Positions 61,969 through 62,554 of a DNA stretch of 64,000 bases are shown here, in pieces (positions within the stretch are counted from its first letter, which is position 1; every line of letters starts with the position of its first letter). Source of the stretch: Escherichia coli (GTDB lineage Bacteria; Pseudomonadota; Gammaproteobacteria; Enterobacterales; Enterobacteriaceae). Position numbers and translations under genes: made by a program. The stretch lies in NCBI RefSeq assembly GCF_003334385.1, contig NZ_QOWN01000010.1; one strand, 5' to 3'. The notes beneath the pieces are model-generated. The model was not told the origin of the DNA, searched no databases, and saw nothing but the letters and a program-made list of their open reading frames with translations.

Positions 61969-62202
61969 CCTGTATTACTCCATGTATTGCCAAAATCTCT
62001 CTCTGTATCTAATTACAGGTAACTGAAAAGAAAGATATTTTTGCACCTCATAATCCGTTATTAAACGCGGAAGAGAGACGTGAATTGTTGATGATGAGAA
62101 GAAGAAATGATGAGCAGAGTGTCCATATAAAATCCTTTTCTCGCCCGAAAATCCATTCCAATGATGAGGATCTTCAGGAATACGGCATAAATCCCAATGC
62201 CT
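61969..62202 (-). promoter_or_regulatory. long pgaA 5' leader with multiple GGA motifs (CsrA-type sites), one in the Shine-Dalgarno
   Basis: Transcribed strand carries GGAG SD and several GGA trinucleotides within about 230 nt upstream of the pgaA ATG. Confidence 0.6.
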
Positions 62203-62554
62203 TTTTCAAAATAAATTAGGATTAAAATAATTAAATCAGTAAATTCCGATGCATGATTTCGGATTTTTCGAAAGTCCTGATGAAAGGCTGCGCTACGGCA
62301 CTCACGGATTTAATTGTTATTCCTAATGTATCTATGAATTAATGTTTTATAAGGATTTTCTATAACCATTTATAAGTATTTTCAAGCCTGGCTTGTTGCA
62401 AACAATGTATAAAGCACTTAGGCAATAATAATTACATTCAGCAACTATCATCATCGGTATTGTTTGTGGGCGGAATTTCATATTGACAACAGTACAGTTC
62501 TTATATCTATTAATAATAGAAAGGGATCTACAACCTACAGATTGGTGTAGCTTT

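What the first reader, a model, noticed from the sequence alone, without database searches (positions are those of the whole stretch)
61969..62554. 586-bp AT-rich divergent region between pgaA and dgcT with a long GGA-rich pgaA leader
The pgaA leader strand carries GGAG at the ribosome-binding site and several further GGA motifs, consistent with the known CsrA repression of pgaA. The same spacer drives the divergent dgcT, physically linking c-di-GMP synthesis to PGA production. A regulatory spacer this large leaves room for additional unannotated elements.
Basis: partly seen in the sequence, partly recalled or inferred. Interest (0 to 1): 0.25.

Follow-up and report, generated by a model that had tools for sequence, protein, structure and literature searches.

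The report
Known pgaA–dgcT regulatory spacer of E. coli
This is the well-studied control region between the E. coli biofilm-polysaccharide operon pgaABCD and the c-di-GMP synthase gene dgcT; its GGA-rich leader is the textbook target of the RNA-binding repressor CsrA, and I found no hidden extra gene in the rest of the spacer.

Summary
The window is 100% identical to E. coli K-12 here. pgaA (59545..61968, -) and dgcT (62555..63913, +) diverge across a 586-bp spacer with 34% GC.

The published 234-nt pgaA leader (62202..61969, - strand) carries 8 GGA motifs where about 2.6 are expected. One lies in the GGAG Shine-Dalgarno sequence and one overlaps the AUG.

Only 3 of 8 GGAs sit in predicted hairpin loops. 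The two attenuator sites are paired by design.

"Room for additional elements" is not supported. About 390 of the 586 bp are conserved or assigned to known functions. The remaining 62282..62479 is the fastest-evolving part. It has indels, broken small ORFs and no Rfam match.

Two small additions:
- A conserved 5'-terminal hairpin displays a GGA (+9) that lies outside the six published sites.
- A 21-codon upstream ORF over the rut site keeps its frame in five lineages. It shows no coding-type substitution pattern, and its AUG mutant was reported to have no effect.

dgcT–pgaA adjacency was seen only in Escherichia-like lineages.

The parts
61969..62554 (.). 586-bp divergent spacer between pgaA (-) and dgcT (+), 34% GC
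   Evidence: Matched in 4261 of 5426 complete E. coli genomes.
59545..61968 (-). pgaA coding sequence (PGA export porin, 807 aa)
62555..63913 (+). dgcT (ycdT) coding sequence, a MASE4-GGDEF diguanylate cyclase, 452 aa
   Evidence: Pfam MASE4+GGDEF on the orthologues.
61969..62202 (-). pgaA 5' UTR, 234 nt (+1 = 62202), with 8 GGA motifs. Window coordinates of the GGAs: +9 62192-62194; +44 62157-62159; +49 62152-62154; +68 62133-62135; +79 62122-62124; +147 62054-62056; +222 61979-61981; +233 61968-61970.
   Evidence: UTR length from PMC4052769 and PMC3571907. Motif positions and statistics.
62184..62201 (-). 5'-terminal hairpin (+2..+19), GGCAU-UGGGAUUU-AUGCC, with GGA +9 in the loop. Conserved. 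Apparently not one of the six published CsrA sites.
   Evidence: CAU..GGA..UAUG is invariant in 6 lineages. One G:C to A:U compensatory change (L011) and one C:G to U.G change (strain THO-015).
62144..62178 (-). Second predicted leader hairpin (+25..+59), with GGA +44 and +49 in its 3' arm
   Evidence: Six pairs show changes on both sides across 6 lineages (helix 2).
62096..62142 (-). Published anti-terminator hairpin (+61..+107). The left arm (+61..81) carries CsrA sites AAGGA (+68) and AUGGA (+79). [quoted passage not shown]
   Evidence: Reproduced by folding. Function from PMC4052769.
62073..62153 (-). C>G-rich rut region (+50..+130) of the Rho-dependent attenuator. It contains the direct repeat UCUKCUCAUCAU x2.
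   Evidence: PMC4052769. 28% C against 12% G, and this bias is kept in all lineages. Repeat D2.
62061..62126 (-). 21-codon upstream ORF (AUG +77 to UAA +140..142), peptide MDTLLIISSSHHQQFTSLFRV. Its Shine-Dalgarno sequence coincides with CsrA site 1, its AUG lies inside CsrA site 2, and its body covers the rut region.
   Evidence: An AUG mutant was reported to have no effect (PMC4052769).
61996..62004 (-). AGAGAGAGA (+199..+207), probably the non-GGA member of the six published CsrA sites
   Evidence: AGAGA is listed as a secondary site and attributed to Wang 2005 in PMC4066749 Table 2. The assignment to this position is my inference.
61968..61983 (-). Translation initiation region: AUGGAGUAAUACAGGAUG, with CsrA sites over the Shine-Dalgarno sequence (GGAG) and the start codon. 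Invariant in the E. coli strains and the 89% lineage.
   Evidence: Translational repression through these two sites: PMC4052769 and PMC7652899.
62203..62281 (-). pgaA core promoter plus conserved upstream block (-1..-79). It includes an NhaR-like T-N11-A box, TCGAAAAATCCGA, at 62259..62271 (-69..-57).
   Evidence: 4% variable columns and 85% identity to the divergent lineage. The box matches 10 of 13 positions of the consensus TCgaAAAAatCtA of PMC6307784. Fragments -124..+234 and -116..+32 were used as the promoter-bearing fragments in reporter fusions (PMC4052769, PMC3571907).
62282..62479 (.). Low-constraint AT-rich middle segment. It contains a 15-nt direct repeat, TTTATAAGGATTTTC / TTTATAAGTATTTTC, at 62346-62360 and 62369-62383.
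62480..62554 (+). Conserved dgcT-proximal block. It holds a TTGACA -35-like hexamer (62483-62488) and AAAGGGAUC with GGA at 62524-62526, which is the only GGA in this block and so a candidate for the single published CsrA site of ycdT.
   Evidence: [quoted passage not shown] The dgcT transcription start was not determined here.

Best explanation
The region is the known bidirectional control region of the E. coli pgaABCD operon and dgcT (ycdT).

On the minus strand a weak promoter sits just upstream of 62202. It depends on the activator NhaR, whose candidate box lies at -69..-57. It makes a 234-nt leader that CsrA represses at two levels:
- CsrA dimers bind AAGGA (+68) and AUGGA (+79) on the left arm of a marginally stable hairpin (+61..+107). 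This frees the C-rich rut site on the right arm, and Rho terminates transcription inside the leader.
- Transcripts that escape are blocked for translation by CsrA bound over the GGAG Shine-Dalgarno sequence (+222) and the AUG (+233).

On the plus strand, the last ~75 bp before dgcT carry its promoter and a short leader with one GGA. CsrA also represses dgcT, so CsrA lowers both the PGA machinery and a c-di-GMP source that can activate it.

The ~200 bp in the middle appear to be low-constraint AT-rich spacer DNA.

Shown here: coordinates, GGA enrichment and its conservation, the predicted hairpin, the C>G bias, and the conservation profile. Taken from the literature: CsrA, Rho and NhaR binding and their effects.
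For: - Identity to K-12 and the gene names.
- GGA count and controls. Invariance of the GGAs in E. coli. Recurrence in diverged lineages.
- The MFE fold reproduces the published +61..+107 hairpin exactly, with +68 and +79 paired and the Shine-Dalgarno and AUG GGAs in a loop.
- C 28% against G 12% downstream of site 2, kept in all six lineages.
- Segment conservation: promoter 96% and leader 91-95% invariant columns against 78% in the middle.
- NhaR-like box.
- Published mechanism: PMC4052769, PMC7652899, PMC3571907, PMC12360218.
- dgcT as a CsrA target and divergent partner of pga: PMC4287979, PMC5389547, PMC4066749.
- pgaABCD and dgcT were both among the NarQ-upregulated candidate genes tested in PMC13124679.
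Against: - The whole leader is no more stable than shuffled sequence (z = 0.10).
- The dinucleotide-shuffle control gives only P = 0.09 for the GGA count.
- The attenuator hairpin is predicted to be weak in two diverged lineages (-1.3 and -1.6 kcal/mol), and GGA +79 and +147 are lost in the 89%/80% lineage. The exact K-12 mechanism may therefore not hold throughout the clade.
- The primary papers (Wang 2005, Goller 2006, Jonas 2008) were not readable here. The exact footprint positions and the dgcT transcription start rest on secondary sources or on inference.
Confidence: 0.93

Rival explanations
1. The leader also works as a leader-peptide attenuator. The 21-codon ORF (AUG +77) uses CsrA site 1 (AAGGA) as its Shine-Dalgarno sequence and has its AUG inside CsrA site 2. 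Ribosomes translating it would cover the rut site and block Rho. CsrA would then promote termination at least partly by repressing translation of this ORF, not only by opening the hairpin.
For: - AAGGA lies 6-7 nt before the AUG.
- The ORF (19-21 codons) is kept in the same frame in five lineages with PgaA at 100-74% identity. Length differences are in-frame: a 6-nt shift of the start in L011, and a 12-nt gap in L012.
- The AUG is kept in two lineages that have lost the GGA of site 2 (AUGAAC, AUGAGU).
- A neutral simulation gives ORF retention of 0.46, 0.12 and 0.05 at 15%, 33% and 45% divergence.
- The hairpin is predicted to be very weak in the L011/L018 lineage, while the C>G region persists.
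- The 58% lineage L013 also shows a hairpin-loop GGA followed by an AUG and a CU-rich ORF.
Against: - Figueroa-Bossi et al. mutated this AUG and saw no effect on pgaA expression (PMC4052769).
- There is no third-codon-position excess (4/3/3 and 9/10/6 changes), and nonsynonymous codon changes dominate (6:3, 12:3).
- In this CU-rich tract the other two frames are also largely open.
- The AUG and UAA overlap or adjoin CsrA sites and the hairpin, which could explain their conservation.
- The 2025 Rho review still gives only the hairpin model.
Confidence: 0.15
2. The spacer hides an additional unannotated element (a small RNA, an antisense RNA or a small protein gene) in 62203..62554.
For: - The spacer is long.
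- One sigma-70-like site on the + strand at 62203-62231, and one terminator-like hairpin on the + strand at 62184-62201.
- A 15-nt direct repeat at 62346/62369 with invariant ATAAA cores.
- 44-codon ORFs on both strands.
Against: - Promoter-like sites are fewer than in shuffles (1 against 3.0 +/- 1.9).
- The terminator-like hairpin is the complement of the pgaA 5' hairpin, and its T-run is absent in L011 and L012.
- ORF 62347..62481 is frameshifted or has lost its start in several E. coli strains. ORF 62085..62219 has a stop codon in 4 of 7 E. coli strains.
- 62282..62479 is the least conserved segment and has indels.
- No Rfam match better than E = 4.
- RefSeq annotates nothing there in any of the fetched records.
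Confidence: 0.05
3. The GGA richness is a by-product of composition (GG and GA dinucleotides) with no function beyond the Shine-Dalgarno sequence.
For: The dinucleotide-preserving shuffle gives P = 0.09. Over the whole 586-bp spacer the two strands have similar counts (9 and 10).
Against: - Within the transcribed leader the count is 8 sense against 3 antisense, and only 0.6% of windows reach 8.
- All eight are invariant in E. coli, and most are kept at 74-89% PgaA identity.
- Direct binding and mutational data are published (PMC4052769, PMC7652899).
Confidence: 0.02

Closest known systems
E. coli pgaABCD 5' UTR: CsrA translational repression (Wang et al. 2005) plus the CsrA-induced Rho-dependent attenuator (Figueroa-Bossi et al. 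2014)
   Same: It is the same locus, and the sequence is 100% identical to K-12. [quoted passage not shown]
   Different: Nothing differs. I add only that three further GGAs (+9, +44, +49) lie upstream of the 'two 5'-proximal' published sites, and that the +9 GGA sits in a conserved 5'-terminal hairpin.
glgC leader (high-affinity CsrA site in a hairpin loop plus a low-affinity site over the Shine-Dalgarno sequence)
   Same: A GGA presented in a hairpin loop upstream, plus a GGA in the Shine-Dalgarno sequence. CsrA dimers bridge sites 10-63 nt apart.
   Different: pgaA has many more sites and a second, transcriptional layer (Rho). Its attenuator sites are base-paired rather than loop-exposed.
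ycdT/dgcT and ydeH/dgcZ as CsrA-repressed diguanylate cyclase genes (Jonas et al. 2008)
   Same: dgcT carries a conserved GGA (62524-62526) 29-31 nt before its AUG and is listed as a direct CsrA target.
   Different: Only one site is described. I could not read the primary paper, so the transcription start and the footprint are not verified here.
Leader-ORF-dependent Rho attenuators and CsrA-controlled upstream ORFs (for example the iraD upstream ORF, Park et al. 2017, cited in PMC7652899; chiP, Bossi 2012)
   Same: A short ORF whose Shine-Dalgarno sequence and AUG coincide with CsrA sites lies over a rut region. The geometry resembles translation-coupled control of Rho.
   Different: The one published test (an AUG mutation) was negative, and I see no coding-type substitution pattern. 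It resembles this class but is not shown to work that way.

Membership tests
CsrA-repressed mRNA leader | Several GGA / A(N)GGA motifs in the 5' UTR, more than chance would give | tested here: met
   8 observed against 2.6 expected. 0.6% of windows reach 8. 3 on the antisense strand.
CsrA-repressed mRNA leader | One site overlaps the Shine-Dalgarno sequence or the start codon | tested here: met
   GGAG at +222..225 and AGGAUG at +232..237. Invariant in the E. coli strains and the 89% lineage.
CsrA-repressed mRNA leader | Paired sites 10-63 nt apart, so that a CsrA dimer can bridge them | tested here: met
   +68/+79 and +222/+233 are each 11 nt apart. The spacing rule is from PMC4052769.
CsrA-repressed mRNA leader | GGA presented in single-stranded or hairpin-loop context | tested here: inconclusive
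   3 of 8 lie in hairpin loops (+9, +222, +233; unpaired probability 0.75-0.96). +49 and +68 are fully paired. The pairing of +68 and +79 is part of the published mechanism, so this feature is not a fair discriminator here.
CsrA-repressed mRNA leader | Direct CsrA binding and csrA-dependent expression | not testable with these tools
   Published: PMC4052769, PMC7652899, PMC5389547.
Rho-dependent attenuator remodelled by CsrA | C>G-rich rut region downstream of the CsrA sites | tested here: met
   28% C against 12% G in the 78 nt after site 2. 23-31% C against 6-12% G in all other lineages.
Rho-dependent attenuator remodelled by CsrA | Marginally stable hairpin pairing the CsrA-site arm with the rut arm | tested here: met
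   +61..+107 is predicted in both global and local folds, at -6.4 to -6.7 kcal/mol. It is weaker or absent in L011 and L018. 67-72% of cells are paired across 6 lineages.
Rho-dependent attenuator remodelled by CsrA | Rho/NusG-dependent termination stimulated by CsrA | not testable with these tools
   Published in vitro and in vivo: PMC4052769.
NhaR (LysR-type)-activated promoter | T-N11-A box resembling TCgaAAAAatCtA upstream of the -35 region | tested here: met
   TCGAAAAATCCGA at -69..-57 matches 10 of 13 positions. It lies in the most conserved block of the spacer. Binding itself was not tested.
Any curated RNA family (Rfam 15) | Match at or near the gathering score | tested here: not met
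   The best hits have E = 4 and 9.1 and are far below the gathering scores.
Leader-peptide (upstream ORF) attenuator | Start codon with a Shine-Dalgarno sequence, and an ORF conserved in frame across lineages | tested here: met
Leader-peptide (upstream ORF) attenuator | Coding-type substitution pattern, or a demonstrated effect of the start codon | tested here: not met
   No third-position excess. The AUG mutation was reported to have no effect (PMC4052769).
Intrinsic terminator (+ strand, 62184-62201) | G+C-rich stem followed by a conserved U-run | tested here: not met
   The stem has 5 bp. The T-run is absent in L011 and L012. A C-to-U change in strain THO-015 keeps pairing only on the pgaA-sense RNA.

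The most novel reading that the evidence does not exclude
Two conserved parts of the pgaA leader lie outside the published six-site and hairpin model and may be functional.

(a) A 5'-terminal stem-loop (+2..+19) displays GGA and leaves only one unpaired 5' nucleotide. It might act as an mRNA-stabilising cap and/or a seventh CsrA site.

(b) A 21-codon upstream ORF has its Shine-Dalgarno sequence and AUG in CsrA sites 1 and 2, and its body covers the rut site. CsrA could then trigger Rho termination partly by shutting off leader translation, especially in lineages where the hairpin is predicted to be too weak.
Probability: 0.15. Interest if true: 0.4.

Novelty: already known. Interest (0 to 1): 0.1.

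Why it matters
The locus matters biologically. It decides when E. coli makes the PGA biofilm adhesin, and it is the founding example of a protein (CsrA) that promotes Rho-dependent termination by remodelling RNA. All of that is already in the literature, so the finding adds nothing new.

This check has three uses:
- It shows that the sequence-only reading was right about what the region is.
- It shows that the 'GGA must be in loops' test would mislead.
- It shows that the unexplained remainder of the spacer is the least constrained part, not a hiding place for a new element.

The conserved 5' hairpin and the frame-conserved upstream ORF are modest, testable refinements for people who work on Csr and Rho.

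Tried and rejected
- **Rfam scan** of 61500..63000 at E <= 10: only two chance-level hits (snoZ7, PYLIS_3).
- **Promoter and terminator scan**: one weak + strand promoter-like site, fewer than in shuffles. The + strand 'terminator' at 62184-62201 is the complement of the pgaA 5' hairpin, and its T-run is not conserved. Rejected.
- **Small ORFs**: 62347..62481 (-) and 62085..62219 (+) are broken in several E. coli strains. Rejected as genes.
- **Whole-leader stability**: z = 0.10. dgcT leader fold: z = 0.01. Neither is unusually structured.
- **Genome-contig scan** with the PgaA N-terminus: only 2 loci. One is a 382-bp 'Tannerella' contig that looks like E. coli contamination.
- **blastn** of the L011 leader against E. 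coli genomes: no match.
- **Metagenome pattern scan** for diverged leaders: only 4 loci, all from two lineages already in hand. No large covariation set could be built, so I built no covariance model.
- **Literature access**: Wang 2005, Goller 2006, Jonas 2008 and Thomason 2015 are not held, and the supplement of PMC4052769 is not held. Exact footprints, the dgcT transcription start and genome-wide start-site data could not be checked.
- **L014 (Enterobacter)**: its GGA richness turned out to lie in a 78-aa upstream ORF, so I did not count it as leader conservation.
- **dgcT promoter**: I looked for a canonical -10 element after the conserved TTGACA (62483) and found none with A2/T6 at 16-18 bp spacing. 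The dgcT promoter is left undefined.

Full report
**1. What is there**

The window around the finding is 100% identical to E. coli K-12 MG1655. In an identical RefSeq record the flanking genes are pgaA (poly-beta-1,6-N-acetylglucosamine export porin) and dgcT (a GGDEF protein). Nothing is annotated between them.

In window coordinates pgaA is 59545..61968 on the minus strand and dgcT is 62555..63913 on the plus strand.

GC is 34% against 51% for the window. The AT-rich tract continues through the 5' half of dgcT (33-34% GC to about 63200), and the whole pga-dgcT block is below the window average. The spacer is matched in 4261 of 5426 complete E. coli genomes.

**2. The GGA observation**

The published pgaA 5' UTR is 234 nt (PMC4052769; PMC3571907), which puts +1 at window 62202. 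On the leader strand GGA occurs at +9, +44, +49, +68, +79, +147, +222 (inside GGAG, the Shine-Dalgarno sequence) and +233 (overlapping the AUG).

| Control | Result |
|---|---|
| Mononucleotide shuffles | 2.6 +/- 1.4 expected, P about 0.001 |
| Dinucleotide shuffles (conservative) | 5.5 +/- 1.5 expected, P = 0.09 |
| All 237-nt windows of the 64-kb window | 0.6% reach 8 |
| Antisense strand of the leader | 3 GGAs |

All eight motifs are invariant in seven E. coli strains chosen for divergence (93-100% spacer identity).

**3. Structure**

The minimum-free-energy fold of the leader (-53.2 kcal/mol) is no more stable than shuffled sequence (z = 0.10). It does reproduce the hairpin-like element +61..+107 that Figueroa-Bossi et al. 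derived with Mfold and validated by mutagenesis and gel mobility.

In that element the GGAs at +68 and +79 are base-paired on the left arm (unpaired probability 0.01 and 0.37). The right arm is the first half of the C-rich rut site.

Only +9, +222 and +233 lie in hairpin loops (unpaired probability 0.96, 0.76 and 0.75). The published mechanism requires that the two attenuator sites be sequestered in a weak helix that CsrA opens.

**4. Mechanism (from the literature, consistent with the sequence)**

- CsrA binds six sites in the leader. [quoted passage not shown]
- Binding to the two 5'-proximal sites (+61..+81) unfolds the hairpin, exposes rut and causes Rho/NusG-dependent termination within the leader. 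A 2025 review still gives this model.
- NhaR activates the single promoter, and CsrA also represses nhaR.
- PNPase also acts through the 5' UTR.
- ycdT/dgcT is an accepted direct CsrA target with a single site near its Shine-Dalgarno sequence. It was proposed to feed c-di-GMP to PGA synthesis because it diverges from pga.

On the sequence side I could confirm three things:
- The C>G bias: 28% C against 12% G after site 2.
- A T-N11-A box, TCGAAAAATCCGA, at -69..-57. It matches 10 of 13 positions of the NhaR consensus proposed in PMC6307784.
- A conserved GGA at 62524-62526 in the dgcT-proximal block.

**5. Is there room for something else?**

I split the spacer by conservation among seven E. 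coli strains plus a divergent lineage, strain SCPM-O-B-8794 (PgaA N-terminus 89% identical).

| Segment | Variable columns (7 E. coli) | Identity to the divergent lineage |
|---|---|---|
| pgaA promoter block, 62203..62281 | 4% | 85% |
| Leader (four sub-segments) | 5-9% | 66-82% |
| dgcT-proximal 62480..62554 | 7% | 76% |
| Middle 62282..62479 | 22% | 56% |

The middle segment also has several indels. About 390 of the 586 bp are thus conserved or assigned to known functions, and the remainder is the least constrained part.

Other checks point the same way:
- The two 44-codon ORFs in the spacer are frameshifted, lack a start or carry stop codons in other E. coli strains.
- Rfam gives nothing credible.
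- Promoter-like sites are fewer than in shuffles.
- The + strand terminator-like hairpin at 62184-62201 is simply the complement of the pgaA 5' hairpin, and its T-run is absent in two lineages.

I found no support for an additional element. Only transcriptomics could settle this finally, and no genome-wide start-site data were accessible.

**6. Beyond E. coli**

I fetched graded PgaA relatives together with their upstream DNA.

| Locus | PgaA identity | Organism or source | Gene upstream of pgaA | Non-coding stretch before pgaA |
|---|---|---|---|---|
| L010 | 80% | E. coli (NCBI name) | divergent MASE4-GGDEF (dgcT-like) | 585 bp |
| L011 | 77% | Logan run SRR6186591 | divergent MASE4-GGDEF (dgcT-like) | 581 bp |
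| L012 | 74% | Citrobacter sp. Awk 4 | co-directional chemoreceptor | 586 bp |
| L013 | 58% | ENA metagenome contig | unrelated (GNA1162-like) | 722 bp |
| L014 | 51% | Enterobacter cloacae | unrelated, plus a 78-aa ORF next to pgaA | 723 bp (includes the ORF) |
| L016 | 45% | Citrobacter portucalensis | unrelated (acetyltransferase) | 816 bp |
| L017 | 44% | Klebsiella aerogenes | unrelated | 650 bp |
| L015 | 46% | Atlantibacter hermannii | divergent GAPES3-GGDEF-EAL gene | 1097 bp |

The dgcT-pgaA adjacency therefore appears only in the Escherichia-like lineages sampled. A long non-coding stretch upstream of pgaA is general, so the spacer is mostly 'pgaA's' DNA.

GGA enrichment in the last 240 nt is kept in the lineages with PgaA at 74% identity or more (8, 7, 7 and 5 GGAs; P <= 0.02). 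It is not seen in the distant ones (3 each, not significant). The high count in the Enterobacter locus lies inside a 78-aa upstream ORF and was discounted.

**7. Two small things not in the published model**

[quoted passage not shown] AGAGA is listed as a secondary site attributed to the pgaA study. By inference the six sites are then +68, +79, +147, AGAGA at about +199-207, +222 and +233. That leaves +9, +44 and +49 unassigned.

The +9 GGA sits in the loop of a 5-bp hairpin at +2..+19, with only one unpaired 5' nucleotide. Across six lineages CAU..GGA..UAUG is invariant. One pair changes G:C to A:U (L011), and in strain THO-015 one changes C:G to U.G, which keeps pairing only on the pgaA-sense RNA.

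A neighbouring helix (+25..+59) shows six pairs with changes on both sides. With six sequences, and a structure derived from one of them, this is only suggestive.

The hairpin is unlikely to be a strong CsrA site on its own. A mutation in the +68 site nearly abolished CsrA binding to a +1..+137 RNA, and a -116..+32 fusion that contains the hairpin is highly expressed. A role as a 5'-end stabiliser is my inference.

*(b) The upstream ORF.* The AUG at +77 starts a 21-codon ORF (62126..62061). Its Shine-Dalgarno sequence is CsrA site 1, its AUG lies inside site 2, and its body covers rut.

- The ORF is kept in frame, at 19-21 codons, in all five lineages. This includes two that have lost the GGA of site 2 but kept the AUG.
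- Neutral simulation gives retention probabilities of 0.46, 0.12 and 0.05 at the relevant divergences.
- Against it: substitutions show no third-position excess (4/3/3 and 9/10/6), and the other frames are also largely open in this CU-rich tract.
- The authors mutated this AUG and saw no effect, in a Salmonella surrogate host.

I rate a functional upstream ORF at about 0.15.

**8. Verdict**

The feature is already known and interest is low.

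Noticed in passing
L003 (NZ_JUET01000049.1, 382 bp): A 382-bp contig labelled Tannerella forsythia ATCC 43037 encodes the first 15 residues of E. coli PgaA at 100% identity, and the rest of the contig lies upstream of that start. This is most likely E. coli contamination in that assembly.
   Followed up: no
L022 (E. coli EC2, NZ_CP058571.1), equivalent to window 62175..62185: An IS1 element (777 bp inserted, including the target duplication) sits inside the pgaA leader at about +18..+27. It lies just after the 5' hairpin, with its transposase gene in the pgaA orientation. It differs from the published IS1 insertion in the pgaA promoter of EAEC strain 55989 (PMC4287979).
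   Followed up: partly
window 62555..63913 against L004-L009, L002, L010: K-12 dgcT is 452 codons, while six other E. coli strains and the divergent lineages annotate 455 codons. In K-12 an IS3 transposase gene is annotated starting about 40 bp after the dgcT stop. Whether the K-12 C-terminus was altered by the IS3 insertion was not checked.
   Followed up: no
L015 1..3000 (Atlantibacter hermannii-type locus): pgaA is preceded by a 1097-bp non-coding stretch and a divergent GAPES3-GGDEF-EAL gene. This is a c-di-GMP gene different from dgcT in the same relative position, possibly an independent linkage of c-di-GMP turnover to pga.
   Followed up: no
L014 2732..2968 (Enterobacter cloacae locus): A 78-aa ORF with a strong Shine-Dalgarno sequence (GGGAG) and no Pfam hit ends 33 nt before pgaA. 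Its sequence is acidic and looks like a real small protein (MKEEMYQYDDDDIDS...). It may be an extra gene of that pga operon.
   Followed up: no
window 62346..62383: A 15-nt direct repeat, TTTATAAGGATTTTC / TTTATAAGTATTTTC, with 23-bp spacing lies in the otherwise variable middle of the spacer. The ATAAA cores are invariant even in the divergent lineage. It could be a binding site for an unidentified DNA-binding protein.
   Followed up: partly
inside dgcT (reported K-12 genome position 1,092,430; not mapped to window coordinates): Two independent genomic-SELEX papers (FlhDC, SrsR) report a peak at genome position 1,092,430 inside ycdT/dgcT, and a third (RcdA) lists ycdT as the peak gene without a coordinate. 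This suggests a generally 'sticky' AT-rich site rather than specific regulation.
   Followed up: no
window 62000..63400: The AT-rich tract (31-37% GC) is not confined to the spacer. It covers the membrane-domain (MASE4) half of dgcT, and the whole pga-dgcT block is below the window mean of 51%. The spacer gave no match in about 21% of complete E. coli genomes, and Salmonella lacks the pga operon (PMC4052769). Together these fit a horizontally acquired block.
   Followed up: partly
L002, L010 and L019-L021 against window 62122..62124 and 62054..62056: In the lineage with PgaA at 89%/80% identity, the GGAs of published CsrA site 2 (+79, AUGGAC to AUGAAC) and site 3 (+147, ACGGA to ACGGG) are lost. 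The unassigned GGAs at +9, +44 and +49 are kept.
   Followed up: partly
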